Source: Eledone cirrhosa
Taxonomy: Eukaryota
Direction of reading: 5' to 3'
NCBI GenBank assembly: GCA_964016885.1
Contig: OZ024740.1
Coordinates: forward strand, 200,570,001-200,634,000
Length of the DNA: 64,000 nt
A program made the translations under genes and the position numbers. This document shows positions 4,912 through 51,186 of the stretch, piece by piece (within the stretch, counting starts at the first letter, position 1; each line of letters begins with the position of its first letter). Below the pieces are notes generated by a model. It did no database searches. It was not told the origin of the DNA and saw only the letters and a list, made by a program, of their open reading frames with translations.

Positions 4912-7360
4912 ACACAAATTCTTTAGGGATGCGCTGTGGGAATTCACTAGGGAAATTTTCCATCCAGAATTGTATTGCCTCTATACCTAGGTTGTGTGGG
5001 ATATTGGAATATAAATTGATGACATCAAAGGTTACTAGTAGGGTATGTTCATTATTGAGTGTTGTTGGGAGGTGGTTGAGCATGTCAAGGTCGTCCCTTA
5101 TGAAGCTTTTTATGTGTTTTAGGAAAGGTTTAAGCAGAATATCTAGGAAGTTGCTTAGGCGGTGGGTTTCACATGTGGTGCCTGCTATTATGGGTCTTAA
5201 TTTAAGGTCACCAGGAGGGGCTATATTGATGTAAACGTCTGTGGCTTGCTTGCGGGACCTACCTATTACTTCGCTTTTGTGTGTCTTGGGGATACCGTAG
5301 AAGAGGCTGGTTCTGCTTTTGAAATTGGTGATGTAGTTGTAATAATCTGTCTCCATAAGGACTACTGCACTCCCTTTATCTTCCTCTTTGATTGTTAGGG
5401 TTTTGTCGTTTTTTAGACTGTTAAGATCATTCCATTCTTTTTTGCTTAAGTTTGGTTTTTGTTATGTCTGTGTAAGTGGTCGTATGGGTAATTTGTAATG
5501 TGTTCACAGAATTGATCGAGGAATTTATTCTTGCCTTTTGGTGGGGTGTAGTTGATTCTATTTCTGGCTATTGAGTCATCCTCATTGTATTTGTCGTATA
5601 GTTGTTCGCTGAGTCTTAGTTTTCTACAGAATTCTGCAATATCTTCCTTCATTTCGGGGTAGTTTGGTTGTTGGGGAGTTGGTGTAAATTTAAGACCTTT
5701 GGAGAGTATGTTGATTTGGTCTATTGTTAATTCTTTAGAGGTTAAATTGACAATTTTTATAGCATTTTGTGTCTCTTGTGTTTTTTGTGTTATCTTGTAA
5801 TCCTGTGTCTGTGTGCTGTGTCTAAAAAATGATTACGGAAGTTGTGATGGCTGTTGAAGTTTGGATGTCTCTTATAGTTGTATTGGCTCCTGCTGTTGTT
5901 GTAAGACGGTGTGTAGCTGTGGTGGTTGTTGAGTTTAGGTTGTATTGAGCCCTGCTGATGTTGTTGTAGGGTCTGTAGATTTGATGGACGTGGTTATAGG
6001 GTGTGAAGTTGTGGTGGTTGTTGAAGTTGGGTTGTATCGTATGGTTGTGTTGAGCACTGCTGTTGTTGTAGGGTGTGTAGACTTGGTGGTAGTTGTAGTA
6101 GGGTTGTCTCGTGTGGTCATATTGAGTCCTGTTGTTGCTGTTATATGGTGTGTAGCTATGGTGGTTGTAGTGGTTAGGGTGTCTCGTGTGGCTGTATTGT
6201 CCCCTGCTGGTATTGTTGTAGTAGGATGTGGTTAGTGGGGGAGGGTAGATTAGAGTTTCCTTATAGCAGGTGTGTGGTTGTGAGGCCCTGTGTGACATGT
6301 GTAGTAGTTGTGTAATTTGGGTTTTATGTTGGAAGTAACGATGGTTGTGTGTTTGTTGTGTGGGAGTGTTAGGGGGGTTGTAAGTGTGGGGGATTTTATG
6401 GTTTCTACTGGTAGGAGAGAAGTTGTAGTGTCTATCTTGTAGCTGATGTTTCTCTATTACTATATTTGTTGCTTGGGAGTCCGTGTGGTAGTTGTGTGGA
6501 AGATGTAGGAGGTAGAGGCGAGGTGATGCCTTCTTTTGTTGGTATGTGGGGAGGTATTGTTCTTTTGTTGTTGTTGGTTGTTGTGTGGTGTTTGGGTGTT
6601 GAGTGAGTTTTCTTGTTATTATGGTTTTAATGAAGGGGCTCTTAGATGTGTGTTCTTTTTGGAAAAGTTTTTCATAGTTAGAGAACCAGGTTTCATTTAT
6701 TTCCAAGCTTTGAAGGGATTTTAATTCTTCCTTATTACGGTCCTCTAACCATAATTTTGAAATATTTTCTAGGGTGGTGTCTTTGGTTATATTGATAATT
6801 GCTAGATTAATCTCATCGTCGATTGATTTGATCCTATCTTCATTTGCTTGGGCTCTCAATTTAAGGAGTTCAATTTCGGTTTTTATGTTATCAAGTGCCA
6901 TTCTTTTCTTGAGGCGTCTTTGTGTCTCTGTTTCGTTTGGGATGGATTTAATTTGTAGTTTGCCGGGGATGATTAATGGGGATGAGTTAATCCATTTTTC
7001 ATAGATCTCCGCTTTGTTATTGTTTTGTATCATCTTCCAAAAGGAGAATTTCCTGTTATTAACAGATGTGTACCATTGTGGTATTAATTTGTTTTTTATT
7101 TGGTAAGTTGTAAGTGTATTAGTGTCATGTGTATTTTCATTCGTTTGAATAGGATTTGTGTTGTTATTCAGGTGTGTTTTTATTGTTTCACATAAGTTAT
7201 TGATATTGTCGTTGATTTCATAGGATGTGTATTTCGGGATTGTTTCTTCACTTATAGAGTTAAGTTTGTTGGTGCGTATTGACAAATTAGAGTTAATTTT
7301 TTATAGTTCTTGGAGTATCTCTTGATTGATGCTGATGAGAATGGAGTCTGTTTTTGTTTT
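4912..7360 (-). mobile_element. Penelope-like element with an upstream ORF1 and the N-terminal half of RT; C-terminus missing
   Basis: RT-frame motifs IVNLTSKELT..LSKGLKFTPTP (~5755-5675), FYGIPKTHK, LRPIIAG and LVTFDVINLYSNIPH (4853-5356). Upstream ORF at 5822-7285. Confidence 0.85.
5790..7285 (-). pseudogene. ORF1 of the two-ORF PLE: helical/coiled-coil-like N-terminal part, His/Tyr/Asn-rich repeats at the C-terminus
   Basis: 487-aa ORF. After QYN(L) the repeat motif continues in another frame ending RNHFLDTAHRHRITR* (TAA 5792-5790), indicating an internal indel. Confidence 0.65.
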
Positions 7361-7496
7361 AGTAGGCATTTTCTTATCTTGCGTGGGAGTGAATAATAAT
7401 AATAATAAAATGTGGAGAGGAAGCACACGAGTTAGGATATATATACAATAGAAGTAAATATATACCCAAATAAAAATGAAAAAATCAAAAATAATA

Positions 7497-7652
7497 ATTT
7501 TCTCCACTTTTGGCACAAGGCCAGCAATTATCTCATTGCATTACTGGTACTTTATTTTATCGACCTTGTAAGGATGAAAGGCAAAGTGAACCTCGGTTGG
7601 ATTTGAACTCAGAATGGAAAGGGCCGTAACTCTATGCATCAAAGCATGGCGT
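7497..7652 (-). mobile_element. tRNA-derived SINE, 5'-truncated
   Basis: Reverse complement of the family at 24398-24590 (GAGTTCAAATCC B box, GCCTTTCATCCTTAC..GTCGATAAAATAAAGTACCAG). Confidence 0.85.
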
Positions 7653-7659
7653 AATAATA

Positions 7660-7847
7660 ATTGTTTCTACTTTTGGCACAAGGCCAACACTTATCACAGT
7701 GTATTACTGGTACTTTATTTTATCGACCCTGTAAGGATGAAAGGCAAAATTAACCTCGGCGGTATTTGAACTCAGATCATAAAGGGCCGTAACTCTTTGC
7801 TGCATATCGTGGCGTCTCACCCTCTACCGATACTGCCAATCCACCGC
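7660..7847 (-). mobile_element. tRNA-derived SINE, near full length
   Basis: A box TGGCAGTATCGGTAG and B box on the minus strand; same central domain. Confidence 0.88.
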
Positions 7848-10246: not shown

Positions 10247-13135
10247 GTGGGAAAGCTGTACAAGATGGACGCGAGTAAGTATAAAAAATTCATCTATAAG
10301 GAACTACACAAAGACTACAAAAAGACACCCTCTAGTACCCTAAGTGACATAAATAGAGTAGGGAAGGATATAGTCACCAGCTTAGAAATAGAAAAGTACA
10401 CTAACCAGTACGTCCCTCTGACGCCTAAATTCTCTCTTAAGGATCACAAATATGACTTTAATGAAAGCCCCTCTATTAGACTAATATGCCCCTCTACATC
10501 AGGTATAGGTAAGATTAGTAAAGTGATCCTCGACAGAGTACTACTGGAGCTTAATAGAAAGGCTAAGGTCTGCCTCTGGGGCAACACCGACCAGGTCATA
10601 AATTGGTTCACCAAGTTGCCGGATAAAGCCACCCTGAAATTCATCCAGTTTGATATAGATAGTTACTACGCCTCTATCTCTCCCATACTCTTAAATAAGG
10701 CACTTATCTTAGCTAGATCTAACACTAGCCTCACTAAAAAAGAAATAGACATAATTCTAGCGGCACGTAGAACCATTATCCAGTTCGAAGGCTCCCACTG
10801 GACCAGAACCAACCGTCCTGATAACTTCGATGTCACGATGGGGTCCAGTGACTCAGCGCAAGCAACTGACCTGGTTGGGATATACCTCCTACATAAGCTT
10901 AGGGAAGAAATACCGGCCCTACAAGGAGGTATATATAGGGACGACGCCCTGTTTACCGTTAGGAACCATAGCCCCCGTAGGATAGAGAACCTTAACAAAC
11001 ATATATACAGGTTCTTTAAGTCATACGGCCTATCCGTAACTATGGACCTCAACCACAGGGTTGTCAACTTCCTGGACGTGACCCTGGAGTTGAGTACGGG
11101 CTTATACAAGCCATACCATAAGCCTAGAGAGTGCCTCTCTTATATTAATTATGCCTCCAACCACCCTAAGCAGACTCTCAACTCCATAGCCTATAGTATC
11201 TCACATAGAATCTCGAGGCTATCCGCCAATGAGGATATCTTCAACCAAGCGGCAGATTACTACAATAAGGCCCTGATAAGCGCTGGCTTTAACCGAGGAA
11301 TTTCCTACATCCCTAACGCTAGCTCTAGAAACCACCCCCTCATAAAACTAAAGTTATTGTAAGCCATACCTATAACCGATCACGCGGCGACCTCGTTGAA
11401 GTCGGATATAATAGAATAGATAACCGCACCAAAGATAACGTCCCCGGCGACGGTGAACACTGTAGATTACTCAAACTATTTCCCTATTACAAAACCAACA
11501 AAGGCGACGGCCTACTACCAACGCCTTCCAACCAACATCTTCGTGTACATAAACATGGAAGAGGTAGAAAGAGTGAACCCGAGCATAAAGTGAAAGGGGC
11601 ACCGAACGGGCGACTGCGCATTAACATACATAAGAGCGGTCACTTAGATGGAACCAGCCGTAGCAAAAGTACAAGGACACGTAATCGCCACCGTAACATC
11701 CTATGGTCCCCCCCCCCTACTCTCGGAGTGTGGCCTCCAACATACCCCGGATGTTCTTCAAAGCCTTAGAGAAGAACTTCCCGCCCAACCATAGGTATAG
11801 AAAAATTCGTAATAGGAACAATATAAAAATATCCTTCTCTACTACTCCTAACCTAGCAGACATCATAGGAACAACGAACCACAGTAAGATCACCAAGACA
11901 CAGCACATCGACACAGATGCACCTACACCTGACAATAACTATATCGGCCTTAACAACTCCCTGGCAGCATCCAATAGTGTTGGCAACGGCATCCGCAGAC
12001 GCAACCAGAATAACCGCAAAATGACTGGGGAACATGCAGAAAGTGACGTGAGGAATAACAATCGCACCGCCCCGCGTGCTGTGGGTTGTAATTGTGCTAA
12101 CGACAGCTGCAGTAGCGTAGGTAACAACGTAGGCAGCAACAATGATAGCCTTACAGTGGGAAATAGACGGAACCGCGACAGAAATTGCAACTGCCGCGAC
12201 AGAGGACGCTGCCCCCTTAGAGGATACTGCTTGACTGATAGGGTTATATATAGATGCACTATTACTAGCCACAATAGCGTTAAACATTATATAGGAGCCA
12301 CCTCCGGCCCGTTCAAAATTAGGTTTCGAACACATCTCCACTCTTTCACAAATAGAAAACTAAGGCACTCCACTTCACTAGCGGACTACATCACATCACT
12401 AAAGGACTTAAACATCAGCTTCTCCAGGCACTGGGAGATTGTCGGCAGGGCTGCACCGTACAACTTCAAGAGGAAATGCGATCTTTGCCTCATGGAGCTC
12501 TACCACATCATAACTGCACCCCACGAGCTCATCAACTGCAGAGCTGAAACAGCGATAAGTTGAACACATCGCTTAAAGATATCCTTCTTCAGATGGGTTA
12601 AGGATGAAGAGTGAAACAGTACACTGGATCTCCCTGCAACAAGTATTAACACCCCGGCGGGCAGGCGCTGCAAAATAACACCCAGGAAACAATCCTTGCA
12701 TACCAGACCCAGCTTCAGACAAACGGATGCGGCAAAAAAAAAAAAAATTGTCCGGGATAGACTGCCCTAACACCGGCCAGAGTTACCTCCCTTGACCAAT
12801 ATATTTTTGCGAGCAATGAACCTTGATGTGGATTTAACCCCCAAAACTCTTTCCGAGCAATATAAGGAACACTTGTGATTATGCTCTTGAGAAGCCCAAC
12901 TGGGCGAAACGTACGTAGGTGATATTTTAAATAAACATGTTTTAACGGTATATTCTCCGATTTTTTACTTTCCCACGTGCTCACGCTCTGCTAACTCTCT
13001 AGCCCACTAAATATTAACACTTCGAATATTTAATACTGCCGGCACTAGTATCGAGCACCTTTGGCATACGCTACTTGGCAAATAACTATATGTATCACCT
13101 ATCCCCCCTTTTTTTCCTCTTTCTCGATACGTAAA

Positions 13136-13137
<2 letters not shown>
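10246..13137 (+). mobile_element. PLE family A (RT + GIY-YIG, Hydra-clade-like), 5'-truncated, between two (TA)n tracts
   Basis: LKDHK, QFDIDSYY, MGSSDSAQ, GIYRDD, VNFLDVTL, YHKP; linker CNCRDRGRCPLRGYC; VIYRC..YIGAT..RF..H; CDLC. Frameshifts near 11335 and 11705. Confidence 0.93.
12882..12921 (+). ncRNA. Type I minimal hammerhead ribozyme, U3:A8 variant, in the family A pseudo-LTR
   Basis: TTGAGAA-gccc(aact)gggc-GAAAC-gtac-GTA-gg; palindromic stem III ACGTACGT; short stem I. Confidence 0.65.
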
Positions 13138-13183: not shown

Positions 13184-14060
13184 ACAAAATCTGAGACCCC
13201 CTTCGACGTTAACATGGGTGCTAGCGACTCAGCTTAAATTAGTGACCTTGTGGGTCTGTTCTCCTCCACAGGTTGAAGACCCTCTTCACAGGCCTCTCCG
13301 GTGGTCTCTACCGAGATGACGGCCTCTTTGCCCTCCACAAAATCAACCCCAGGACCACGGATGGGTTCAGGAAAAACCTTTACACCTTCTTTAAAAACTT
13401 AGGCCTTAGGATTACCTTAGATTCGAACTTAACTAAAGCTAACTTCCTAGACGTTACCCTCGACTTAGAAACTTCCCTTTACTACCCGTACCACAAACCT
13501 AATGAATCCTTTAGATATATAGACGTTAATTCTAACCACCACCCCCCAAAAAATATATTAGACAACCTAGTAAAAAGTGTCTCCATTAGGATATCTAGCC
13601 TCGCCGCCAATGAAGATATCTTTAGAGCAGCAGCCCCCTATTACAACGAGGCCCTGGCCCGCAGCGGCTTTAGAGATAAGATCACCTAGCCTAGTATAGC
13701 CCCACGCCCACCCAGGAAGAATAGGCGAAGGCACATTAGCTGGTACAACCCCCCCTTCAACCGCGAAGTTTCAACACCTGTAGCTAAAATTTGCTTCACT
13801 CTCTTACAAAAACACTTCCCCACCCAACATAGGTACTACACTATCCTTAATAAGAATACCATTAGACTCTCTTACTCTACCACACCTAATCTAGCTAGGA
13901 ACTTAGCCAACAATAACATCAAGAAGCTAAATAAGTCTACTTTTTCCGAAGCCCATCCAGCAACCGATAGCAACTGCAATTGCCCTGATATGACGACCTG
14001 CCCTCTCAACAACAACTGTCTAAAAAAGATCTCGTCTATATATGCGATGGACTCTCAGGC
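13181..14060 (+). mobile_element. PLE family B internal fragment
   Basis: GGLYRDDG, NFLDVTL, WYNPPFN; collinear with 59344-60192. Confidence 0.9.
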
Positions 14061-14772: not shown

Positions 14773-15045
14773 ATCTGTGTGTGTATGTATGTCTGTATAT
14801 TAGTGGTCGCGTGTGCATGCGTGTGTGTGTGTGGAGGGACCAGTATTTTTATTAGTACCACAAAAATACTGGTCCATGCACACACAAAGACACACACACA
14901 CTCACACGCATGCACACGCGAACACTAACATATATATATATATACTATTTTCCTATTACCCACTCTACTACCCTAAGTATCGAGTACTCTGGTGCTTTAT
15001 GGTCAACCTGGGTTCTAAGGGAATCTTTCCGGGCCGTGTAATATA

Positions 15046-15320
15046 ATTGAATATATGAGAGGGATAAACACCTATACAAGTATACATGTGTTCCAATTGC
15101 AAATGACCAAGTTAGCTAGGTTGAAATTTACTAATTAAAACAATATGGTTTGCCTGTCTCGATTTAAAGTAATAAATCAATAAAAATAACAAATCTATAT
15201 TGGGCAACTGCCTTTGATACCCGTTTTAAAATAGTATTTTTTCAACCTAGCTAACTTGGTCATTTGCAATTCGAACACATCTATACTTGAATCGGTGTTC
15301 ATCCCTCTCATATATTCAAT
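15046..15320. repeat. Inverted repeat, ~80-bp arms and ~110-bp spacer, abutting (TA)n
   Basis: ATTGAATATATGAGAGGGAT..GCTAGGTTGAAA pairs with TTTCAACCTAGC..ATCCCTCTCATATATTCAAT. Confidence 0.9.
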
Positions 15321-15365
<45 letters not shown>

Positions 15366-19533: not shown

Positions 19534-22500
19534 AACTAATGTAATGGTACGCGATGAGGCACACCCACAGCCCCGGTGGACAGAATGGAGAAGGCGTTTC
19601 CCCGGAGGACGGCAAGGCAGACGTGCTGGAAAAGCCACTCCAGCTCGCGGGGCTCACACCTACGGCTGGCCAGCTCAGCGCCTATGGTGGTGAGTAAGGA
19701 GGTAGCCCTGGGACCGAGGACACCAGAAGTTTCCACTGCCTGGAGAACGACCGCAAACCTGTCGGAGAGCGACCGGTATTTGAGGAGTTTGGCCCCCTCA
19801 GCCCGACGTGCAGCAGAACCTGGGTCAGTCATAGACTGCACCAGGTTGCAGCTGCAGAAAGTGTCGGTGCAAGTGGCATCCCAGACGAGGGGTTTGCCAC
19901 CGCGGAACGGGAAGATGGTCATGCCATCTGGCCTTTTGCCGTCCCCTCTATCCAGCCCCACCGGCTCGAACTGGGAAGGAAGCCTGCAGCGCCCAAGGCA
20001 CGCTTAATGACCTCGTTGAGGGCAGTATGGCATGGAATTCGGCTGGCACTGTGGCAACAGGAAAGCGGGTGGAGGCCGAAAGCGCAGCAACATTGGTGTG
20101 GCTGGCAGATCCGGAGGCCGAGCCTCAGGGAAACGCCGTTTCGCAGGCTATGGTTGTCTAGCAGCATGCCAGTGGAGAAGGAGGGCAGAGCATGGAGCCA
20201 GGCATCACTGTGGTGTTTGGAGGCCGCACAAAAACAAGCAAGGCGGTGCTGCTCGAGCTGGCGCGTCAGCCTGTCTGAGGCCAGGCTGCACTGGATGGCA
20301 TCTCAAGTGCGTTGGGGGGACTTGACGTCAACAGAGGGAGAAGGAGGAGAGACGTCTACTGGGCTAAGTCCCAGCCGATCTCACGTCTCACAGGCGGCCA
20401 CACGTTCTCTGAACACAGAGTGTTCTGTTGTGTTTTGAAGAACCCTGCTGACGACGACGCGGCACGAGGTTACCGACGAAAGATACGCCGGCAAAGCTAG
20501 TGAGATCGGGGACCGGAGGCCTAGGCCGCCATACCTGACCGGTAAAGTGGCCTGTTGCCCCCATATGTCGTCAAACCTGACGTTGCATATCCCCTCGGCT
20601 GCTGCTCGGATACAAGTATCGAGGTCAGCGAGGAGAGATGTCTGGGTCTAGCATGGAGCGCTGCGGAATGTATAGAGGAGCTTCGGCATGGCGAAGCAGT
20701 TCCAAAGCAGAAAGAGAGCTGGGTGGCCGTCAATCAAGCCCAGTCGGCTCGTGAGAGTCTGGAGCTGTTGAAGCCTGGACCTGATGGTGGAGCGGATGGC
20801 CGGCGGGTGGATCGGTGACCCGAGGATGAGGACATCTTATTTGGGCATCACCTGAACCTGACGGAGAATGGACCGCACGTCCAAAACGGATGCTGCAAAG
20901 CTCAGAGCATCTAGGCTGACGTTCATCACCTCCGACATGGCCGAGTTGACCTGGAGGCCGATTCCCGCCAGAGCAGGAACCACCGATTGAAGGTCTTGGC
21001 AGACCGTCCGTACGGGCCCGCCCAACGTAGCATCATCCAGATACCAAACATTGAGAGGGGCCGTGATACTCCGGGCGATGTGGTCAACACCAAGGGCGAA
21101 CAGGAGGGGTCCCAAAGTGTCGCCCTGTTGGACCCCAGTAGCCGAGGGTATGACCGTATCAGCAGCTAGGAGCATGCTCGGGGCTCCATATGACAGGTAG
21201 GCCAGCGGGTAGGGAGAGGTGGCTCGGCTGAGGCAGGCCTCGAGCAGATGATCCCGGCGTAAAGAGTTAAATGCATTCCTCATGTCAAGCTTGACAATCA
21301 GGTGCATGGAGTCCCTGGATGCCGGTACCGATGGGTAGCTGCTGAAGAACTGCCTGATTGCATGAGAGGCTCCCTCACAGCCACCGGACACGCCGACAAC
21401 CAGTTGCGCCGGACCAAACTACTCACCCAGTTCATGTGTGACGAACTTGCAGATCACCATGGCAGCCAGCCTCCGAAAGACATTGCCCACAGCAATGGGG
21501 CGTATGCCACCCTCTTTCTTCCTGAGATCGGTGAAGCTGGCCGAAAAAAAGAGGCCTTGGGCGTAAGGGTCGAGGGTACCATGAATGAGCCTATTGGTGA
21601 GCGCCACAATTGCACTCAGAAGGCGGCGCCCGGCCTCAGCGGAGACGGGGGATGTCAACTCCTTGAGGTGGCCTGGTCGGAGACCATCAACACCTCTGCA
21701 GCTGCTAGCTGGGAAGGACCTGATGGGGGACATGATATCTGCATCAGTAGCCACAAGGAGCAGGTGGGGTCGGATGGGGGTATCGGTCTGAGATCAGTGG
21801 GTGGATTAGGGTGTTTGAGCCGCAGAGCAGCCAGGATCTCCTCGGTGGGTTGGAGGACAGTGTCCTCTGAGGCAACAACTCTTACTGCGGCCGAAATATC
21901 ACCCATGAGAAGCTTTGCGTTTACCTGGTCACGCAAACGCTTGGCGCTGGCCTCGGGGGTGGAGGATAGGGGGTACCTGAGGGTGGGGTGTGTGGCGTCA
22001 CTGGGCACGCTTGGAATGGGCGCTCGCCCAAATGACGAAATAGAACAGCCGCTCCCAGTCATTGGCTCAATTGGAGTCCAGGGCGCTCTCAATCGAGGAA
22101 GCGAGGGCATCGGCCACCGGCACCCGTGCCGCTCTGGGCACCCTGAGTGGGATTTTCCGCCTGAGCCGAGCGATGTTGACCAGCGAGGCTCGGGCGTCAG
22201 GCAAGCTCGCTGTCCCATCTGGTGGAGTGCTAGACGGCCGTGGCTGGGAAGACCTGGGGAAGAGCAGCTGCTGCACCTCCACGCTGCGAGGGCATTGGAA
22301 GCTCGACGAGTCAAGCCAACGCAGGTGAGGTGGTAGAAGCAGCCGCACCCCAAACAGTCCGGCCCCTCTTCCGTTTGTTAGTAGTGCCGCAAGTGCTGCA
22401 GGTGTCGATTTGGAGGGGTGGGGATGGGGCGTGGAGCCGGGGACTGGGGCACCGATCGGCATCAGGGTGGGTGGCTGGTGTGTGTGGTTGGAAGGGAAAG

Positions 22501-23680: not shown

Positions 23681-24334
23681 TTTAATATATACAGAAACAC
23701 AGAATACGACGTGTTGATAGAGGGAGACGGTAAATAATGACGCTGAGAATATTAAAATAATTATGACGCAGGAAGAATTAAGATGATTAAGTCTTTCATA
23801 AAAATATATTGGGACAGGGGATGAGCGTCCTTATTCAAAACTGCGCTACATATCAAGAATCTTTCAAACATTATTTATAAAAACTATATAAGATGTTGCT
23901 TTCCATACGACAGTATTCTTTAGTAAGTAAGAAGTAAGTGTATGTTGAAGTTGAATAGAAATCCTAAATTATGTATACAGTGCTCTTACATAGAAACAGA
24001 GTCGGGTGTGATATGATGATAGCTTTAAATATTTACATATAGTACATCTCTCAATATATGCCTTTACTCTGAGAATTGATAAAATGCGCGGAAGAAGAGA
24101 AATATTTTGTCTGTAAATGTTTACATCTTAATAACTTTAGATATTTTTTTTATTTATCTACTTATTTATTCATTTATTTATTTCCATGATCTTGATGAAA
24201 GAACATTACATATGACTTTTACAGGGCGACATTCATAGTTTTGCTGCTCTACTACATAAGCGGGCTCCTGCAGGAACTCATTACTAAGTAAATATATTGA
24301 GTTGAAGTTCATATTCACGCATATATATATATAT

Positions 24335-24680
24335 ACGATATTAAACAAATGGAAACTACATTTATAAAACCATATTTATTTCATTATATATATTTAAGGG
24401 CGGTGGATTGGCAGTATCGGTAGAGGGTCGGGACGCCATGCTTTGAAGCATAGAGTTACCTCCCTTTATGATCTGAGTTCAAATCCCGCCGAGGTTAACT
24501 TTGCCTTTCATCCTTACGGGGTCGATAAAATAAAGTACCAGTAATACACTGGGAAAATTGCTGGCCTTGCGCCAAAAGTAGAAACAATTATATATATTTC
24601 AGGGATATCATATTAAAAATATGGTATGCCCTCTTCAGACAAAATACAATATATAAACAGTTTTATAAATAAATTTGACA
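24335..24680 (-). mobile_element. PLE-type pseudo-LTR terminus with a hammerhead, interrupted by a SINE
   Basis: Reverse complement of 34290-34440; CTGAAGA..GAAA core at ~24597-24639. Confidence 0.7.
24396..24586 (+). mobile_element. Full-length tRNA-derived SINE (Meta-domain-like centre) with TSD
   Basis: A box TGGCAGTATCGGTAG, B box GAGTTCAAATCCC; TSD ATTATATATATTT at 24383-24395 and 24587-24599. Confidence 0.92.
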
Positions 24681-24892
24681 TACCTTAAAAAATTTAACAA
24701 CTTCCATTTTAAAAAGTTGTCATGGTAGTGAAAATGTTAAGGACAGTTAGAAAGAAAGACGGAGAAAAAAGAAAAAAAAAAAAAAAAAAAAGAAGGAAGA
24801 AAAAAAGAAAGAGCGGAAGGTGAAGAAGATGAAGAAATGTATGTAAAGAGAAAAACACCAAATGAGAGATTTATGAGGGAAGGGGGTACTGT

Positions 24893-24925
<33 letters not shown>

Positions 24926-25179
24926 GTGTTAAGGATACGGGGAGAAATAAAAACAGGGAGAAATAAAAAAAACAAATAAGGAGAGGTAGATCGAGTAATA
25001 TCTATTATACGAGGTGGGGGAGATAGGGGAGGGGTGAGATACAGTTTAAACAGCCGATACATAAGTCCCGTCAAATGTAGAGGGAGGAGGAGAGGAGACA
25101 TACCCAGAAATAAAAATGATAGTTTTCAAATATTATGTTTCATCAGTCTATCAATTCTTATGAATTATAATGTAAATAT

Positions 25180-27560
25180 CAAAATCTGACCTGGGTAAAC
25201 TTAGCAAAAACATTCTAGACAGGGTGATACAGCAAATTAAGAACTTGAATTGTTTACCTAACTTAAGCTTGTGGAAGGGAACTGGAGAGGTTATTGAGTG
25301 GTTTAAAGAAATTAAATATAACAATAATAATAAATTTTTTCAACTAGATATTGCTAACTACTATTCATCTATTACCCCTAACCTACTAAATAAGGCACTA
25401 AATTATGCATTCAAACATACAGACCTAACTAGCAATGAAATGCACATTATACTATCGGCAAGGAAAACATTGATAGAATTTAATAACCAACTATGGACTA
25501 GGGCAGATAGAGATAGCAATTTTGACATTACTATGGGATCATCTGACTCAGCTCAGGTAACAGACCTTGTGGGCCTATTTATAATTAATTCGCTGCATAG
25601 GAAAATACCCGGTGCTACCGGAGGATTATATCGAGATGACATGCTTTTACTTATTGAAAATAATAACTCTGAACTAAATAGAAAAAGAAAACAAATTATA
25701 CAATTTTTTAATTACCTTAATCTAAAAATAGAAATTGAGAATAACCATAGAATAGTCAATTTCCTAGATGTAACATTAAATCTAAACACATGTCTTCACT
25801 ATCCATTTCACAAGTTAAATGAAAACTTGAATTATGTCAACTTTAACTCCAACCACCCCAGATCTGTTAAAAATACTATAGTGAACTCTGTTCAAAAACG
25901 TATCTCTAGAATCTCATCTAATAAAAATATTTTCGACCAAAAAGCCCAGTATTACAATGAAGCGTTAGCTAGAGCAGGATATAGTGATAAAATTATGTAC
26001 ATCGATAATAATAGACAAACTAACCAAAATAACAACAATTTTAATTACGGTAACAACTTTAACAACTATAATAGAAAGAATTACAATAATTCCAAAAACC
26101 AGAAGAGAAATGGAACTAGAAACATAATTTGGTTTGCCCCCCCCCCCCCCCCCTTTCTCACTAAACATTAAAACCCACATCGCTAAGCTATTTTTTAATG
26201 CTCTTGACAAACGATTCCCTAGAACACATAGGTATCACTCAATTTTCAATAGACATGCTGTGGGGTTAACCTGCTCGTCCACCAAAGATTTGGCACAAGG
26301 TGTTGATAGAGTAAATGGTGGGAGTCTGGGGCCTGGCCAGGGTACCGATAGTGGCATAAACAATATTCAAGTGGACAACTGTGGCTGTGGAGATAGATCT
26401 AGATGCCCGTTAAATAACAATTGCTTAGTTAAAGATATAATGTGCAACTGTGGTGTTGGAACTGACTTAAATTCGTTTGATTATGTTGGTTCCGCCTCGA
26501 CGGAATTTGGGCTTCGCTATAGTGGTCACGGGGGTTCTTTCACGGATCCAAACAGGGGGTCTTCAACGTCACTGTCGGGCTTGCTCTGGCGGCTTGGGCA
26601 TGATGGCATTGGATATTCGACGGTTTGGAATATAGTCTCAAGGGGGATTCCTTTTGACTCCTCTTCTGGGACGTGTAACCTCTGCGCGGAGGAGATGTTT
26701 TTTATACTAAAATCTAGAAGTTCCCTTGTCTTGCGGACCAATTTGTTCGGTTGCTGCAGACATGGATTGAGCTCAGCTTTTGAGTGTAAATATAAATTTA
26801 AAGTGTAGTGTATTTACTTAAGACTCTTAATTATTTTAGAAAACTTGGCGATAGGTCTTTCGATTCCTTCAATTCCTTAAACCTTCTTCATGAGTATATA
26901 ATTAATAATATAGTTAACCTACATTAAAATGGTGATGCTCCCAGTCTATTGAATAAAATGTTTAGGCTAGATAAACTTCTATGATAAATATGGGAGCATC
27001 TGTGGAGCAACCGGGTATCCTAAAGTCTTTTTGAGGGATTTCTGCTGAATAGGTTTGGTGAATAATTTTGGTTTTGTTTGCTTTTAATTCTGATTGCTTC
27101 TGGTGAACTTGGCGGTATATTGTCGGATGGATTGGAAGGATTGATTGATATGCGGGGCACGCTGTGTTTTTGCGGCCCTAGATATTCTGGGGAGTGAAAT
27201 ATTCTTGGCGTTTTTAATATTTTAGTATATTGATGTCTGTTCTATTCTATGCTTGGGCGGTGGTCATGTGGGGGAGGGCAGGAGTATTGTTATTATTAAT
27301 GGTGTATATTTTATGTGTATATATGTATGTATGTACATGTATGTATGGTGGAATCTTTTTTGACGCAGTGAAGATTTTCGTGTGAAATAAGAATTATATA
27401 TCTTTTCTATTCTATGCTTGAACGATAATCATGTAAGAGAGGGCAAGAATATTATTGTTATTAATAATGTATATTTTATGTATATGTGTGTATGTATGTA
27501 CATATGTGTATGGTAAAATCTTTTTAGCGCAGTGAGGATTTTCATGTGAAATAAAAATTT
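25180..27560 (+). mobile_element. PLE family E (RT + GIY-YIG), 3' half A-to-G hypermutated
   Basis: ORFs 25224-26171 (QLDIANYY, MGSSDSAQ, GLYRDD, VNFLDVTL) and 26134-26808 (RCPLNNNCL, YVGS, CNLC, CRH); frameshift in poly-C at ~26140. Confidence 0.92.
27240..27559 (+). repeat. Tandem duplication of a ~155-bp unit differing only by A/G transitions and one T indel
   Basis: 27240-27395 versus 27405-27559, aligned by eye. Confidence 0.93.
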
Positions 27561-27711
27561 ACAGAGATGATCACGTAAACTCACATGTATTTATAATGTC
27601 TATTTGAGATGACCTTCTCTTTTTCTTTCTCTTTTTTCTTTTTCTCTTTTTTCATGAAAATACATATATACCTATGTATTTCAGTTTTTTTAAAGTTTTA
27701 TCTCAGATTTT

Positions 27712-28350
27712 GATAAGTTGTACACATCGCTTCAAAATATCCTTCTTCAGATGGGTTAAGGATGAGTGAAACCGTGCACCGGCGGGCAGGCGCTGCAAAA
27801 TAGCACCCAGGAAACTATCCTTGCGTACCAGACCCAGCCTCAAACGACTCACACAATCAGATGCAGGTAAAAACACACTCAAAATAAGCGTTGATTACAT
27901 GGGTATCAACAATGGTAAGGTTGTAACCTCATCTCGTAGCGGATAATAAAATTTGTCCGGGAAAGACTGCTCTAACACCGGCCAGAGTTACCTCCCTTGA
28001 CCTGCTGCAAAATCAAAACAAGCTATTTTTGCGAGCAATGCACCTTGACGTAGATTTAACCCCCAAAACTCTTTCCAAGCAATGTAAGGAACACTTTTGA
28101 TTATTTATGCCCTTCAGAAGCCCAACCGGGCGAAACGTACGTAGGTGCTGTTTTAAATAAACATGTTTTAACGGTCTATTCTCCGATTTCTGACTTTCCC
28201 ACGTCCTTACGCTCTAGCCCACTAAATATTAACACTTCGAATATTTAATACTGCCGGCACTAGTATCGAGCACCTTTGGCATACGCTACTTGGCAAATAA
28301 CTATATGTATCACCTATCCTCCCTTTTTTTTCTCTCTCTCGATACGTAAA
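27712..28350 (+). mobile_element. PLE family A 3' end / pseudo-LTR, diverged subfamily
   Basis: Collinear with 12554-13137; reads ISCTHRFKISFFRWVKDE*; hammerhead core degraded to TTCAGAA at ~28114. Confidence 0.9.
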
Positions 28351-28377
28351 TAGTGTATGTATATATATATACTACGT

Positions 28378-28431
28378 AAATTAGATTAAGGATGCCATGT
28401 TTGAGAATATCAGAAGCACGCGCCATATCAC

Positions 28432-28501
<70 letters not shown>

Positions 28502-28946
28502 AATATATATATACATACATCTATATGTGTGTGAGTGTATGTGCACATGTATCATTATTAAATATATTCAAATTATCTAATTTAATTTATTTTTCAATTT
28601 CAATTTGTATGGTTTAATATTTTATATTGTTTATTCATTATGATGTATAGGCAGTTTCGATAAGAACGTCGGACACCATGCTTCGCGGCATAGAGTTATG
28701 CCCTTTTAGGTTCTGAGTTCAAATCTCACCGAGGGTACCTTTGCTTTCATCCTTACGGGGGTTGATAAAATAAAGTTCCAGTAGCGCACTGGGGTCGATT
28801 TAATCGACTTTCCCCTCCCACCAAAATTTTAAATTATGAATGAATATTTGTACAAATAATAAGTGTACATACATATTTGCACGTATATATATATATATAT
28901 ATATATATAAATACATATACATATATATATATATATATATAAATAC

Positions 28947-37666: not shown

Positions 37667-37924
37667 ATGTATACTACATTTAAAGGTGGGTTTACTACAT
37701 TTTCATTTTACCTGTTAATTATTGTGTATTTTCTCCACATTTCGTAGACCTATATCCTTTACTATTGTGGTTCTCTACCCGTTGTAAATGAAAAGATAAC
37801 CACTTTTTCTGTTTTAGGTCTTCTAATAACACCTTCGTCCTTTACGACAAAACTAATAATATTTAGGAAGTCGACAACACCACTTTCCGCCACCTGGCCC
37901 ATAACGCTATTACTTATAAATATG

Positions 37925-39870
37925 AGAAATCTAACCCTATGGCCTACTACGACATTAATACAGAAGCCAAGGAACTCGCCACCGACCTTAAGGTACATAA
38001 GCAGCTACAATCTCTAGCTAAGCGGGAGGCGTTCCTCACCCTGAAAGATCACAAGGTAGACTTTACTTCTAACCCCACATGTAGACTAATAAACCCGGCA
38101 CGCACAGATATGGGACTAGTCAGTAAGGCCATACTTAGAAACATAGTTAAGACCATTAGGACCAAGTCCAACCTGCCCCAGTGGGAGAACAGCGACTCCG
38201 TAATTAAGTGGTTTAACTCCTTAAAATCCCAAAAAGCGAAGTTCACACAGTTTGACATTGTCGATTTTCACCCGTTGATCTAAGAGACCCTGTTAAACAA
38301 AGCGTTGGACTTCGCTACCACTTATACCACCGTCGATGGTTTAGACAGGGAAATCATCGCTCACTCCCGAAAACCCTCCTCTTCAACGACGAAGTAGCCT
38401 GGGCAAAGAAGTCTACATCTTCACACCTATTCGACGTCTCCATGGGATAGTTTGACTGTGCTGACATATGTGACTTGGTTGGCCTTTTTATCTTAGACAT
38501 ATTACGTGTTAGATTCCCGGACTTCCACACGGGGATATACCGTGACGATGGACTGACTTTATCGAGCCATAAAAGTGGTCACGACCTCGACCGGTTTAAA
38601 AAAGACTTAGCTTCTACCTTCAATGAGTTAGGCCTTAGGATAACAGTAGCTACCAAACTCTCTATCGCGTGGATTTCTTAGACATTAATTTAGACCTTCG
38701 CACACACACACACAGACCCTTCCATAAGCTAAACGAGAAACTTAATTACATTCACAAGGACTCATGCCACCCTCCCACTGTTTTTAGAAACTTCGTTAAG
38801 AATATCAGTACTAGAATCTCAAACCTCTCCTCTAATAAGTCTATCTTTGACAGGGTGGCACCCTACTATAACACGGCGTTGGCTAACAGCGGCTTCTCAC
38901 AACCTATCACCTACTCTCCCACTAACAACAACACCATTAAGAAAAGTAAGCGCATCAATAGACAAACTATCTGGTTCTCTCCTGCCTTCTCACTCAACGT
39001 TAAAACCAATGTAGGAAAAAACTTCTAGCCCTCTTAGATAGACACTTCTCCATAGGGCATAAATACCGCTCCATCTTTAACGGACACAAAGTTAAACTAG
39101 GATACTCCTGCGCTAAGAACATGAGCACCCACATCACCAGCAGCCCTAGGAGCAACACCCCACCAGGGTGGTCTTGCCGTAAGCCTGAAGCCTGCCCCTT
39201 TCAACAACAATGCAACAAACCAGCTGTAATCTACGAAGCTGTGGTCACTTCCAACCGACCAAACGAACCACAGGAGGTAAAATCCTATGTGGGCATGGCG
39301 GAGGGCCTATTCAAGGAGCGTTTCCTGAACCACCAGTCTACCTTCAGATACCCGGACAGACGTTCATCCACGAAACTCGAGAGCCACGTATGGTCCCTCA
39401 AGGACTCAAGTATAGGGTACTCCATTCAATGGAAAGCCATCACTAAGTCCAAGCCATACGCAAGGGGAAATCCGACGTGTGGCTTATGTATTGACGAACG
39501 AATAACTATCCTAAAGAGATTACGCAATAGTGATTGCCTAAACACGAGAAGTGAATTTTTCACACCGTGTCCACACGTCGCCAAACATCTATTGCACAAC
39601 TACAAGGCCCCGGACTGATTCTTTATAATTTTATTTTTAATTTTTTTATTTTATTTTCAACAAAAAACTTTCCGGACTTTCGCAGTTATCTCCCTTACAC
39701 GCCCCGCACACAGTCTAGTATTGCCTGTGTGAAGTGACCGAGTTTCTGCGCATGCGCGTTCGTACGGTTGTCCTTCCTGTTCCTATAACCATACACATCC
39801 CGAGCTGAAGATCCGCGAAGGTGAAACAATTGTTCTCGGTATGTTGAACTAACTGTTGTGTAACCACTTC
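37925..39870 (+). mobile_element. PLE family C (RT + GIY-YIG), decayed
   Basis: LKDHK..CRLINP, QFDIVDF, GIYRDDG, FLDINL, CPFQQQC, VIYE..YVG, CGLC..E, CPH. Confidence 0.92.
39800..39839 (+). ncRNA. Type I minimal hammerhead ribozyme in the family C 3' pseudo-LTR
   Basis: ccgag-CTGAAGA-tcc(gcgaa)ggt-GAAAC-aatt-GTT-ctcgg. Confidence 0.85.
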
Positions 39871-39999: not shown

Positions 40000-42575
40000 T
40001 CAGGTTCAATAAAACGTGGTTTTGATGACTCCTAACCAGTAGAGGATCCGGTGGCCCATCCACCATAGGGACCACAAACTATGGGTGGTTGTTCTTGTCA
40101 ATTGGTCATTGGTACGGGATGTAGGGGACCTACAGGGGGTGGGGGGGGGGGGGCTTAAGCGGGGTTTAACCATATAGCTTGAGGAAAGTTCCCGTCCTTA
40201 GGTGTCTGCAGACACCGAATAAGTTCTGTTTAATAGCTTGGATCCGCCATGAGGTATCTCAAGTGTCTCACTAAGACAGAGGTTGCAAATACCAGACCCG
40301 CCTCTGTCTGGGGGAACCTTTCTAACCACGAACCAGACCAGAGAGTGCAGGGTCTTTTCAAGTTTGAGCTTCCAGATCAATTCAGAAAGGGCCGTACATT
40401 TCCACTTATCTATTCTGTTAAAGGAATGGCGATGGTTATACCACCGATCTTTGAAGCTCGACGCTGTGGATCCTATGTAGTGGTGCTCCGAGTTAGGGGT
40501 TGTGATCTTGCACCTGTAGACTACGTTTTTCGTCATGCATTCATTACTAAGGGGGCATAGTGATGGGTCTCTGAAATTACATGACTTCTTAAGCCCCACC
40601 GCGTGGTTACCATCATTCGGGGTTGGCTGGTTAGTCTCCGCAATAAGCACAGAGTCGTTGGGTTCCGGTGTGCTAGTTGGGCCTCTCCGGGTTCCGGTTC
40701 GTCCCGCGTGCTGTCTCTGTTTGGTGGATCCGTGGTTTACGGTGGTATTAGAGGCAGTGAGCCTATTCCTATTTATGCCAACTATGTGCTGGGCTACGGA
40801 GCGTGTGCTTGAGTAGGAATGTTTCGCCGTGTGCCTGTTGAATATTTTATGGTACTTGTGGGCCCTAGGGAAATATTTATCCAGTACTCTAAAGAATGTT
40901 CTAGCCAGGATGGTACGTAGACCCACCGAGTACGGAGGATTATACCATGTGACCTTCCTCGTCCTATTCTTGCGGGGTTGTTGGGTGTCCGCCGTGGTCC
41001 ATCGCGTGGTTGTACACAGCTCAGGTCGAGCTCGGTTGGTGTCATTCATGTGTGTGGAGCGGTCACTATCATGAGGGTTATATGGGCCCACCGTGGGGCT
41101 ATAAACCTGCGAGGTGCGGCCTCCCTGCTCAATTGGGATTCGGCGGGTGGTGGGGCCGGTGCAGGGGTGCCTATGCTCCGCAGCACAGTGGTCTTCAGCG
41201 TTGTAGGTATTAGACCGTTGGGGTATGCGGGACCTTCTACCGGGGGTGGTGACGGATAGTGTTGCTACTGGTCACCGAGGTATTAGGTGGACGACTCATG
41301 CCCCTGAGGGTATTGGTCCGGGGTACCCTTGGGTCATCTCTATCATGTCCCTTAGGGTTGTAGCTGATCCTATTGATGTGGGACGCCTTGGCTAGCGCTG
41401 AGTTATAGTAATCAGCGTTACTATTGAAGATCTCTTTATTGGCCGACAAGTTATAGATCCTGTCAGAGACACTCTTAACTACGGCCTTAACTATAGATCT
41501 AGGGTGATTGGACCCAGCGTCGATATACACCAGCTTCTCATTAGGTTTATGATATGGTTGGTGTAGCTTGGTGTTGAGGTTGAGGGTGGTATCCAGGAAA
41601 TTCACTACTTTTCTATTGGGTTCCATCTCTACTTTAAGTCCTACCTTGCTAAAGAAGTGCCTAATTCTCCACTTCATATTTTCGACCGTTGTGGTGCTGT
41701 GGTCCACTACGGTGAAGAGTGCGTCGTCTCGGTACAGCCCGCCACCCAGGTTGGGTATTTCTCTCCTGATCTTGAAGAGTATGTATATCCCAACCAAGTC
41801 CGTTAACTGCACGGAGTCACTGGAGCCCATTGTAATGTCAAAATTATTTGGCCAGTCGCTCCGGGTCGATATGTCCCCACCGAATCGGATCAGGGTCTTT
41901 CTGGCGGCGTGTATGATTCGGACCTCGTCGCGTGTTAGGTCTGTCCTATTCATCAAGAATATGAGTGCCTTGTTTAGGACTATGGGCGAGATAGAGGAGT
42001 AGTAATTGTTGATGTCTAGTTGTATGAAGCTAGTCCTATGTTTGTCAGGTAAAATGTAAACCAGTCCACCACCTGGCTGGTGCAGGACCAGAGTGTAACC
42101 TTATTTTACTCTTAAGTGTGGGCAGGATCCTATCTAAAATGCTTTTGCTAATAACCCCCTTGTCTGACCGGGAGGGGGCTATCAGTCTGACCGGCAGGTT
42201 AGACTCGAAGTTTGGTTTGTGGTCCTTAATGGTAATTCTCGGCGCTCTTGGTTGGTATGGGGCCGTCCTATCATCTATACCAAGACCAGATACGATCTCA
42301 TAAGCCTTGATGTTGATATCCTCCAGGGTAGCCTCGGGCGTTTTTTGTAGCTTTTTCTCAATTCCCTGAGGATTAGCTCATGGTAAAGTTGAACGTCCAT
42401 GCTGTAAAGGTTGTTGGTTTTGTCGGCATGGACGAGTATTCCTGTAGATTCCTTAAGCTCGGTAATTCCATTTTCCAGTCGTCTAAGGTACTCTCGACCC
42501 CGGTATGGTTGGTCGGAAAATTTGATGTCACTTTTGCATCGTTCATCAGTAGTGCTCAACACGTTAACTAAATCA
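40000..42575 (-). mobile_element. PLE family D (RT + GIY-YIG), decayed
   Basis: HADKTNNLY, IKDHK, MGSSDS, GLYRDD, VNFLDTTL, WYNPPYS, CPLSNEC, VVYRC..YIGST, CNLC. Confidence 0.92.
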
Positions 42576-44955: not shown

Positions 44956-44998
44956 ATCGGATAAGAAGCACTCTACAGTTTGTGGGACTGGAGTATGC

Positions 44999-47800
<2,802 letters not shown>

Positions 47801-48637
47801 CACTGATTGACCTCGATGTCACGTGATTGATTCTTTTGAATTTGCCACCGACCAAGTAGGCAGTGATTTTTTCAATGTCCTGGAATTTAGTCCTCACATG
47901 CTTTTTTCCATCCACTGAATTATTTTTGTGTAAGTTCCCTGTGTCCACGCATTGCCTGGGAACTTAGCTGAGAATAGATCTCCCTGATGAAGAAAGAATT
48001 TTTCTCCCTGTTGTTCCAATCGGAAACCATGTTTATTCCCTTTCAGAAACTAATTAGTTGGAGTGAAATTTTAGTAAGTAAGTTAATTTTTATAATTTTC
48101 TTATTTTACGTCTTTCATATAATTGTTCTGCATCCCCTTGCATTGAACCACAAAGTTACTAAGACAAAACCTATATATTTGCCAGCATACGTATATATAT
48201 GTTAGTATATATACTAATTCTTTATAATTATCTCCAAATTATTTTGTTGAGCAAAAAATTTGCCAAAACTACTACTATGGATTATAGTAATAGTCAGGCT
48301 ACTGTCTTATTAGCACCCCACTCCTCACTGATTGACCTCGATGCCACGTGATTAATTCTTTTGAATTTGCCACCGACCATGTAGGCAGTGATTTTTTCAT
48401 TGTCCTGGAATTTAGTCCTCGCTTGCTTTTTTCCATCCACTGAATTATTTTTGTATAAGTTCCCTGTGCCCACGCATTGACTTGGAACTTAGCTGAGAAT
48501 AGATCTCCCTGAGGACGAAAGGATTTTTCTCCATGTTGTTCCAATCGGAAACCATGTTTATTCCGTTTCAGAAACTAATTAGTTGGAGTGAAATTTTAGT
48601 AAGTAAGTTAAATTTCATAATTTTCATATTTTACGTC

Positions 48638-48643
<6 letters not shown>
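47801..48643 (+). repeat. ~525-bp tandem repeat (1.6 units) with one hammerhead-like motif per unit
   Basis: CACTGATTGACCTCGATG at 47801 and 48326; ends in (TA)n. Confidence 0.9.
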
Positions 48644-48725
<82 letters not shown>

Positions 48726-48804
48726 ATAGTGGTAGCCATGATGCTTCCGTAGGCGGTATGCCAAAATTAGCACTCGATATTCATCAGAGTAGAGTGTAGA
48801 TATT

Positions 48805-50997: not shown

Positions 50998-51186
50998 CAA
51001 ATTGTTTTATCGCTCTACATGACTCGATACAGTACTGATGAAGTGTAATCGCACAGAAAAATTAGTGTCTTCCGCTCTGATTGTACACCAACACAAGAGT
51101 AAGAATGATAAGGTCATTCCACTCACATAACTTAGCGTGACTGTTTGCATGATTGCAAACGAATCGAACATTATTATTGATATTCG

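What the first reader, a model, noticed from the sequence alone, without database searches (positions are those of the whole stretch)
27240..27559. Internal control: tandem copies differ by ~26 substitutions, all A/G
Seen by manual alignment: unit 1 has G at ~20 sites where unit 2 has A (e.g. CTTGGGCGGTGGTC vs CTTGAACGATAATC). Unit 2 has G at ~6 sites where unit 1 has A. There is one T indel and no C/T change or transversion. Ordinary DNA decay would not give this spectrum. Inference: two differently edited RNA segments or molecules were copied in one integration, by template jump or from a tandem pseudo-LTR.
Basis: seen in the sequence. Interest (0 to 1): 0.85.

Follow-up and report, generated by a model that had tools for sequence, protein, structure and literature searches.

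The report
RNA-edited retrotransposon fixed in genome
Two side-by-side 165-base copies at the tail of a jumping gene differ almost only by A-versus-G swaps, and the gene's protein code upstream of them shows such changes running from A to G, likely because the RNA-editing enzyme ADAR rewrote the element's RNA before it was copied into the chromosome.

Summary
Observation confirmed. Within 27240-27559 the two units differ at 26 sites, all A/G (20 G in unit 1, 6 G in unit 2), plus one T indel and no C/T. One G/T difference lies just outside, at 27239. No other repeat pair in the window looks like this. The tandem lies 3' of a 5'-truncated Hydra-clade Penelope-like retrotransposon in a probably octopod genome. 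Its endonuclease region turns G-rich abruptly at 26257. There, G-to-A back-changes restore 16 of 38 mismatches at conserved residues and A-to-G only 2, so in the ORF the direction is A-to-G on the sense strand. The 5' neighbours of the inferred edits lean towards ADAR's preference. Best explanation (0.75): ADAR-hyperedited element RNA was reverse-transcribed and integrated, and the two units come from differently edited RNA segments (about 40% versus 16% of adenosines). Not shown: an unedited copy of the family, reads across the locus, a double-stranded partner, and whether a template jump or a pre-existing tandem made the pair. Known precedents are ADAR-hit avian retroviruses and APOBEC-edited endogenous retroelements; I found no Penelope-like case in 10 literature searches.

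The parts
25179..26142 (+). 5'-truncated reverse transcriptase of a Hydra-clade Penelope-like element; little or no editing (G/(A+G) 0.25-0.27)
   Evidence: profile positions 199-492 of 704; 405 and 615 homologs, best identity 47-50%; G-to-A rescues 9 of 68 versus A-to-G 6 for the part before the change-point
26137..26153 (+). run of 17 C at which the RT frame and the endonuclease frame are out of register
   Evidence: sequence; ORFs 25224-26171 and 26134-26808 in different frames
26149..26808 (+). linker and C-terminal GIY-YIG-type endonuclease region with CxCX5C, CxxC and CxH motifs; open frame
   Evidence: profile positions 491-694; motifs; 0 stops in 183 codons after 26257; domain name from Craig 2021 section 11
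26248..26262 (+). sharp start of the A-to-G zone (best point 26257)
   Evidence: change-point: G/(A+G) 0.25 to 0.55, 0 of 200 permutations as strong; C/(C+T) control 78 of 200
26257..26805 (+). A-to-G hypermutated coding zone, about 40% of adenosines (estimate)
   Evidence: 16 of 38 conserved-column mismatches restored by G-to-A, 2 by A-to-G; 11 versus 2 of 28 with a second homolog set; Gly 15% versus at most 8.2% in 306 homologs; estimate 0.40
26809..27232 (+). inferred 3' untranslated region; G-poor in 26806-27000 (0.30), G-rich in 27001-27232 (0.59)
   Evidence: composition; no protein match on either strand; assignment to the element is inference from position
27233..27395 (+). tandem unit 1, G at 21 variable sites, about 40% of adenosines edited (inferred)
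27396..27397 (+). two-base junction between the units, inside a short TA run
   Evidence: sequence; alignment limits
27398..27559 (+). tandem unit 2, G at 6 variable sites, about 16% of adenosines edited (inferred); 0 of its G sites in the first 55 columns, against 11 for unit 1
27560..27720 (.). unassigned spacer or element tail, T/C-rich, not G-enriched (0.29)
27720..28358 (+). neighbouring 3' fragment of a different Penelope-like family, with an ordinary mixed mutation spectrum (control)
   Evidence: matches 12654-13137 and 45489-45994; 7 A/G, 9 C/T, 11 transversions against the 45489 copy

Best explanation
The tandem lies at the 3' end of a truncated Penelope-like retrotransposon copy whose endonuclease region carries dense A-to-G changes on the sense strand, likely written by ADAR into the element's double-stranded RNA and then fixed in DNA when the element's reverse transcriptase read inosine as G. 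Shown: the one-class A/G spectrum, the A-to-G direction and sense strand in the ORF, the sharp 5' boundary, and G sites private to each unit. Inferred: ADAR as the enzyme; a duplex covering only the donor RNA's last 1.3 kb, most simply from an inverted 5'-truncated copy beside the donor, a known Penelope-like layout, which would explain the boundary at 26257; integration in the germ line; and that this copy is dead (truncated, out of frame, conserved endonuclease residues changed). Because reverse transcription starts at the 3' end, unit 2 (about 16% edited) would be copied first and unit 1 with the ORF (about 40% each) second. I favour a switch to a second, more heavily edited RNA molecule (about 55%) over one unevenly edited transcript of a donor that already had the tandem (about 45%).
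For: Spectrum 27 A/G, 0 C/T, 1 G/T, 1 indel in 163 columns against mixed controls. Direction: G-to-A restores 16 of 38 mismatches, A-to-G 2 (binomial P = 0.0013); same element 5' of the boundary 9 of 68 versus 6 (Fisher P = 0.0015); endonuclease regions of the other Hydra-type copies in the window 12 of 152 versus 17 (P = 2e-6). Second set of 148 homologs: 11 versus 2 of 28, P = 0.022. The focus region ranks first of 307 endonuclease sequences for A-to-G-type residue changes (9 versus at most 6), with Gly 15% (others at most 8.2%) and Lys+Asn 8.7% (others at least 12.1%). Change-point in A/G only. The estimated edit rate is 0.40 in both the ORF zone and unit 1. 5' neighbours of 22 inferred edits: T 11, A 8, C 2, G 1, versus T 27, A 36, C 23, G 30 for 116 retained A (P = 0.005), matching ADAR's 5' A/U excess and G depletion (PMC8586724, PMC5625713). 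Octopus has one of the two strongest hyper-editing signals of 19 animals, and a lizard Penelope element is massively edited as RNA (PMC5625713). Inverted truncated copies and partial tandems are typical of these elements (PMC8557442).
Against: No unedited copy of this family was obtained (best protein identity 50%; the published Hydra-1_Obim consensus differs in the RT motifs seen), so the tandem's own direction is inferred. No reads cover the locus. No inverted partner was found in the window, and 26251-27465 folds no better than shuffles (z -1.65 on 12 shuffles, longest helix 14 bp). The neighbour preference is not significant in the tandem alone (P = 0.22), and the ORF test is confounded: conserved Tyr, Lys and Asn codons favour T/A neighbours, and unrecognised edits inflate G among the retained sites. 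With the stricter 0.7 threshold the second homolog set gives 6 versus 1, P = 0.125; that set was retrieved with the edited query. The stretch 26806-27000 is not G-rich, which is unexplained. The other 7 Hydra-type loci in the window show no such signal, so this is one event. The host being an octopod is inferred from the names of distant homologs.
Confidence: 0.75

Rival explanations
1. Assembly or base-calling artefact: the G-rich zone came from a faulty read, or from edited cDNA or RNA reads used in polishing or gap filling.
For: No reads were laid on the locus. Systematic one-class mismatch clusters exist as a sequencing error and enter low-coverage references (PMC2873906, passages). A 17-C run with a frame shift lies about 100 nt before the boundary.
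Against: The known error is G-to-A in AGA/AGG motifs; here the ORF shows A-to-G. Only 1 indel and 1 non-A/G difference in 163 columns and no stop in 183 codons, unlike a noisy read. The zone is continuous with unedited sequence and is followed by an ordinary neighbouring repeat.
Confidence: 0.1
2. A-to-G arose without ADAR: misincorporation by the element's reverse transcriptase under nucleotide imbalance, or adenine deamination of the second (sense) DNA strand during integration.
For: The sequence cannot tell an edited RNA template from damage to sense-strand DNA. No double-stranded partner was found. ADARs can deaminate DNA in hybrids in vitro (PMC12925331).
Against: Editing of the first cDNA strand would read T-to-C on the sense strand; C/T differences number 0. 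Adenine-directed RT error of the diversity-generating-retroelement kind gives A to any base (recalled), whereas here 27 of 28 substitutions are A/G. The step-like boundary and the 5' neighbour bias fit a duplex-dependent RNA enzyme.
Confidence: 0.09
3. G-to-A DNA deamination (APOBEC/AID-like, or CpG decay) of a G-rich ancestor, heavier in unit 2.
For: The tandem alone does not give direction. G-to-A hypermutated retroelements are fixed in vertebrate genomes (PMC4866542).
Against: In the ORF the G version departs from conserved residues (16 versus 2). With G taken as ancestral there is no GG/GA preference (3' neighbours T 13, G 10, C 2, A 2, versus T 10, G 6, A 5, C 3), and only 1 of 27 sites has a 5' C. 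Both TGG codons are intact and there are no stops. The published screen found this editing absent from 19 invertebrate genomes, LTR elements only.
Confidence: 0.03
4. DNA duplication followed by ordinary decay, microsatellite slippage, or a repeat-directed TpA mutator acting on both DNA strands.
For: The middle of the unit is TA/TG-rich, and 3 of the 6 unit-2 G sites lie there. Earlier scan notes describe TpA-to-TpG/CpA mutators in other genomes (unchecked).
Against: A double-strand process gives C/T as often as A/G: controls 225 versus 240, here 27 versus 0. 14 of 27 sites do not follow T. It does not explain the ORF zone.
Confidence: 0.02

Closest known systems
ADAR-type A-to-G hypermutation of avian retroviruses (RAV-1 U3 LTR, Felder 1994; avian leukosis virus, Hajjar and Linial 1995) and HTLV-2/STLV-3 in culture (Ko 2012); seen only as cited in the reviews PMC12925331 and PMC8586724
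   Same: Clustered A-to-G on a retroelement, up to about half of adenosines, tied to an LTR or inverted-repeat region and carried through reverse transcription.
   Different: Those are exogenous retroviruses. This is a Penelope-like retrotransposon in a nuclear genome assembly of an invertebrate, with two differently edited segments in one locus.
APOBEC 'DNA editing' of endogenous LTR retroelements (Knisbacher and Levanon 2016, PMC4866542; passages and two supplement passages)
   Same: A host deaminase leaves strand-specific one-class mutation clusters in a retroelement copy that is fixed in the genome.
   Different: That is G-to-A on the sense strand by cytidine deamination of cDNA, in vertebrates; their filter kept G-to-A and set A-to-G aside. 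Here it is A-to-G, pointing to adenosine deamination of RNA.
ADAR hyper-editing of repeat transcripts, including octopus and a lizard Penelope element (Porath 2017, PMC5625713, passages; Albertin 2022, PMC9068888, passages)
   Same: Same chemistry, same kind of target, 5' G depletion.
   Different: Those are RNA-versus-genome differences; here the changes stand in the genome sequence itself.
Hydra clade of Penelope-like elements (Craig 2021, PMC8557442; abstract, passages, section 11, supplement passages)
   Same: RT followed by a C-terminal endonuclease with CxCX5C linker, CxxC and CxH; under 3 kb; partial tandems.
   Different: This copy is 5'-truncated and hypermutated, the tandem is 3' of the ORF, no clear hammerhead was found, and it differs from Hydra-1_Obim in the RT motifs seen.

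Membership tests
Hydra-clade Penelope-like element | Single ORF with RT followed by a C-terminal GIY-YIG endonuclease | tested here: met
   Profile positions 199-492 then 491-694 in order on the + strand; one frame shift at the C run. The profile is built from unnamed homologs; Pfam gave no hit for either piece.
Hydra-clade Penelope-like element | Linker CxCX5C, with CxxC and CxH around the endonuclease core | tested here: met
   All three found in 26257-26805; CxCX5C in 102 of 120 homologs; definition.
Hydra-clade Penelope-like element | N-terminal RWK and DKT motifs | not testable with these tools
   This copy starts at profile position 199; RW[KR] in 91 and DK[TS] in 112 of 120 homologs.
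Hydra-clade Penelope-like element | Hammerhead ribozyme near the 3' end | tested here: inconclusive
   Rfam at E up to 10: no hammerhead in 24000-28500. One core-like match at 27100 if A-to-G is allowed, without a convincing fold; editing could have erased it.
Hydra-clade Penelope-like element | Insertion into (TA)n | tested here: inconclusive
   Only a short TA run at the unit junction; the element's ends are not defined.
Penelope-like pseudo-LTR | Truncated 3' copy placed upstream of the longer copy | tested here: not met
   Both units lie downstream of the ORF; no third copy elsewhere in the window. It is a 3' partial tandem.
ADAR hyper-editing footprint | Dense cluster of one mismatch class, A/G | tested here: met
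   27 of 28 substitutions; controls mixed.
ADAR hyper-editing footprint | Direction A-to-G on the transcribed strand | tested here: met
   Met for the ORF zone (16 versus 2; 11 versus 2); inferred, not shown, for the tandem.
ADAR hyper-editing footprint | 5' neighbour U/A favoured, G depleted | tested here: inconclusive
   ORF P = 0.005 (5' G alone P = 0.027) but confounded by codon context; tandem alone P = 0.22.
ADAR hyper-editing footprint | Long double-stranded RNA over the edited zone | tested here: inconclusive
   No inverted partner in the window and no strong self-fold; the donor locus, where it would be needed, is not held.
ADAR hyper-editing footprint | The same sites edited in transcripts of the family | not tested
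   No RNA reads were examined.
APOBEC DNA-editing footprint | G-to-A on the sense strand | tested here: not met
   ORF direction is the opposite.
APOBEC DNA-editing footprint | GG, GA or GxA motif | tested here: not met
   No GG or GA excess with G taken as ancestral; GxA was not counted.

The most novel reading that the evidence does not exclude
In octopods, ADAR hyper-editing of Penelope-like RNA in the germ line is a recurrent route from RNA editing to inherited DNA change and kills new insertions, an RNA-level counterpart of APOBEC restriction; and the private edits of the two units are molecular barcodes showing that the element's reverse transcriptase jumps between separate RNA molecules in one integration, which is how its partial tandems arise.
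Probability: 0.3. Interest if true: 0.85.

Novelty: new variant of a known kind. Interest (0 to 1): 0.63.

Why it matters
RNA editing is normally not inherited. A retrotransposon copy that carries about 40% A-to-G over its 3' part would be a direct genomic record that ADAR acts on transposition-competent RNA in the germ line, and it makes a genome-wide test easy: count sense-strand A-to-G clusters in Penelope-like copies against their consensus. The main published screen for edited retroelements kept G-to-A clusters in LTR elements and would have set such copies aside. Edits also label individual RNA molecules, so loci like this one can test how Penelope-like tandems form, which Craig 2021 describe as undefined. 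Such copies would also distort divergence-based ages of repeats.

Tried and rejected
No whole genome is held, so no genome-wide family search. Sequencing runs: 7 listed, 3 contig sets of one sample hold 0.28-0.31 of the words of 25200-27600 and one holds 0.11; 0.43 of the words lie wholly 5' of the boundary. That would fit unedited family copies matching only the RT part, but no reads were laid (one search returned no data), so it is not evidence. Protein searches for a same-family relative: 405 hits, best 47%; 0 of 204 candidates for the endonuclease piece; 615 hits, best 50%; 2874 hits, top hit 39% and at most 41% among the 150 listed. Metagenome scan: 1 of 304 stretches, 40% over 50 residues. 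Craig 2021 supplement: one octopus Hydra consensus, not this family by eye; I saw places 1-11 of 16 for that name. Inverted partner or hairpin: none. Rfam: 8 weak matches, none at gathering score. Idea that 26806-27400 is an antisense piece of another element: no profile, BLASTP or window match. Other hyperedited copies: none among 7 other Hydra-type loci and none clearly among 240 and then 306 homolog proteins. Literature: 10 searches listed no report of an ADAR-hyperedited Penelope-like or other retrotransposon copy fixed in a genome; I saw listings and abstract starts only for most hits, the library lacks most subscription papers, and one supplement file of PMC4866542 was not searched. Earlier scan notes: nothing near this place or sequence, and nothing with all words.

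Full report
Observation. The window is animal-like DNA rich in (TA)n arrays and retroelement fragments. A 165-base tandem lies at 27233-27559. A plain aligner prefers 24 A/G, 1 T/A and a gap; I used that lower count for the test.

Chance. Twenty-one other repeat pairs of the window, picked by hand, give 225 A/G, 240 C/T and 326 transversions; at that share, at least 24 A/G of 25 has P = 1.4e-12, and the longest A/G run in the controls is 5 against 21 here. All 70 self-BLAST rows give an A/G share of 0.225 and a longest one-class run of 6. In a collapsed-alphabet search this tandem is the only one-class pair, 1 of 125 A/G and 0 of 123 C/T alignments.

What the tandem belongs to. Upstream on the same strand lies a 5'-truncated retrotransposon: reverse transcriptase at 25179-26142, a 17-C run that shifts the frame, and a C-terminal endonuclease region to 26808. 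Homologs are at most 50% identical; the few named ones include Argonauta hians and Octopus sinensis, so an octopod host is likely but only inferred. The CxCX5C linker, CxxC and CxH motifs match the Hydra clade of Penelope-like elements as defined in section 11 of PMC8557442. That the 425 bases between the stop and unit 1 are the element's 3' UTR is inferred from position; they match no protein on either strand.

Direction. The tandem alone cannot tell A-to-G from G-to-A, and I found no unedited copy of the family. The ORF can. G/(A+G) jumps from 0.25 to 0.55 at 26257 (range 26248-26262; 0 of 200 permutations), while C/(C+T) shows no such step (78 of 200). After the step, changing G back to A restores the conserved residue at 16 of 38 mismatched columns and A-to-G at 2 (P = 0.0013). 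Before the step the counts are 9 and 6 of 68, and in the endonuclease regions of the window's other Hydra-type copies 12 and 17 of 152. A second set of 148 homologs gives 11 versus 2 of 28 (P = 0.022), and 6 versus 1 of 13 at a stricter threshold (P = 0.125). Among 307 endonuclease sequences this one has the most A-to-G-type residue changes, the most Gly and the least Lys+Asn. So the ORF was changed A-to-G on the sense strand. The estimated rate, 0.40, equals that of unit 1, 0.40, while unit 2 has 0.16; both tandem estimates assume A was ancestral and edits were independent.

Enzyme. The 5' neighbours of 22 inferred edits are T 11, A 8, C 2, G 1, against T 27, A 36, C 23, G 30 for 116 retained adenosines (P = 0.005). 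This is ADAR's known bias (PMC8586724 and PMC5625713, passages), but the test is confounded by codon context and is not significant in the tandem alone (P = 0.22). ADAR needs double-stranded RNA, and I found no inverted partner in the window and no strong self-fold. The partner is needed at the donor locus, not here; these elements often carry an inverted 5'-truncated copy (PMC8557442), which would pair with the 3' part only and give a sharp boundary. That step is inference.

Why two edit patterns. Each unit has G sites that the other lacks, so neither a DNA duplication after insertion nor copying one RNA segment twice fits. Either the reverse transcriptase copied unit 2 from a lightly edited RNA and jumped to a second, heavily edited one, or the donor already had the tandem and one transcript was edited unevenly. 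For a jump: the rate drops sharply at the junction (11 versus 0 in the first 55 columns), the junction sits in a short TA run, and partial tandems occur elsewhere in the window. For one transcript: 26806-27000 is not G-rich although it lies inside the zone, so editing may be patchy along one molecule. I put these at about 55 to 45. Three of the six unit-2 G sites lie in TA/TG-rich sequence and are weaker evidence.

Rivals. G-to-A deamination contradicts the ORF direction and shows no GG/GA motif. Ordinary decay or a two-strand TpA mutator would give C/T as well. Reverse-transcriptase error or sense-strand DNA deamination cannot be excluded from sequence alone. An assembly artefact is unlikely, given one indel in 163 columns and no stop in 183 codons, but no reads were laid on the locus, so it keeps about 0.1.

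Comparison with what is known. A-to-G hypermutation carried through reverse transcription is on record for avian retroviruses and for HTLV-2/STLV-3 in culture (seen as cited in PMC12925331 and PMC8586724). Deaminase footprints fixed in endogenous retroelements are known as APOBEC G-to-A editing, reported absent from 19 invertebrate genomes in a screen that kept only G-to-A in LTR elements (PMC4866542, passages). Penelope RNA is heavily edited in a lizard, and octopus has among the highest hyper-editing levels (PMC5625713); a recent Octopus vulgaris repeat annotation has no occurrence of 'editing' or 'ADAR' (PMC13282606, term search). Ten searches listed no fixed ADAR-edited retrotransposon copy; the library is incomplete. 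Two unchecked notes of this scan report like patterns in an L1 and an endogenous retrovirus of other genomes; they are leads, not support.

Verdict. A real and highly non-random feature, best read as an ADAR-hyperedited Penelope-like RNA written into the genome (0.75). It is a new variant of a known kind, seen here as a single event, with the family comparison and read check still to do. Interest 0.63.

Noticed in passing
window 10253-12588 (+), 13184-14044 (+), 37813-39604 (+), 40224-42526 (-), 46060-47800 (-), 52066-52803 (-), 58651-60527 (+): Seven further Hydra-type Penelope-like loci of several families in 64 kb, none with the A-to-G signal.
   Followed up: partly
window 47799-48646 and 52805-53613: Two separate truncated minus-strand copies of one Hydra-type family are each joined head to head to partial tandems of the same other sequence, which carries hammerhead-core-like motifs (47984, 48509, 52848, 53372). 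They may have moved together.
   Followed up: no
window 25124-25146 (-): A hammerhead-core-like motif on the minus strand just 5' of the point where the focus element is truncated; 24930-25178 matches nothing else in the window.
   Followed up: no
window 26806-27000: A 195-base stretch inside the G-rich zone that is not G-rich (0.30 versus 0.54 and 0.59 on either side); unexplained without an unedited copy.
   Followed up: partly
window 7490-7800, with copies near 24400-24591, 28644-28793, 51186-51376: A short dispersed repeat, SINE-like by my recall, forms another tandem of period 163; its units differ mainly by transversions (13 of 22).
   Followed up: partly
whole window: Repeat pairs are transversion-rich: 326 transversions to 465 transitions in 21 pairs.
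   Followed up: no
window 57761-58575 and 60782-63003: Very long degenerate TA-type arrays (0.8 and 2.2 kb) flank the Hydra-type copy at 58651-60527.
   Followed up: no
window 120-1568, 3825-4912, 20837-21391, 54965-55630: LINE-like endonuclease and RT fragments and a Pif1 helicase 2B fragment (Pfam; 3825-4912 by similarity to 1-1095).
   Followed up: no
window 5822-7285 (-): A 487-codon ORF with a 72-base internal tandem and no Pfam hit; possibly part of another retroelement.
   Followed up: no
window 15041-15325, 44994-45345, 48797-49144: Long palindromic elements (72-99% arm identity), which would be double-stranded RNA if transcribed.
   Followed up: no
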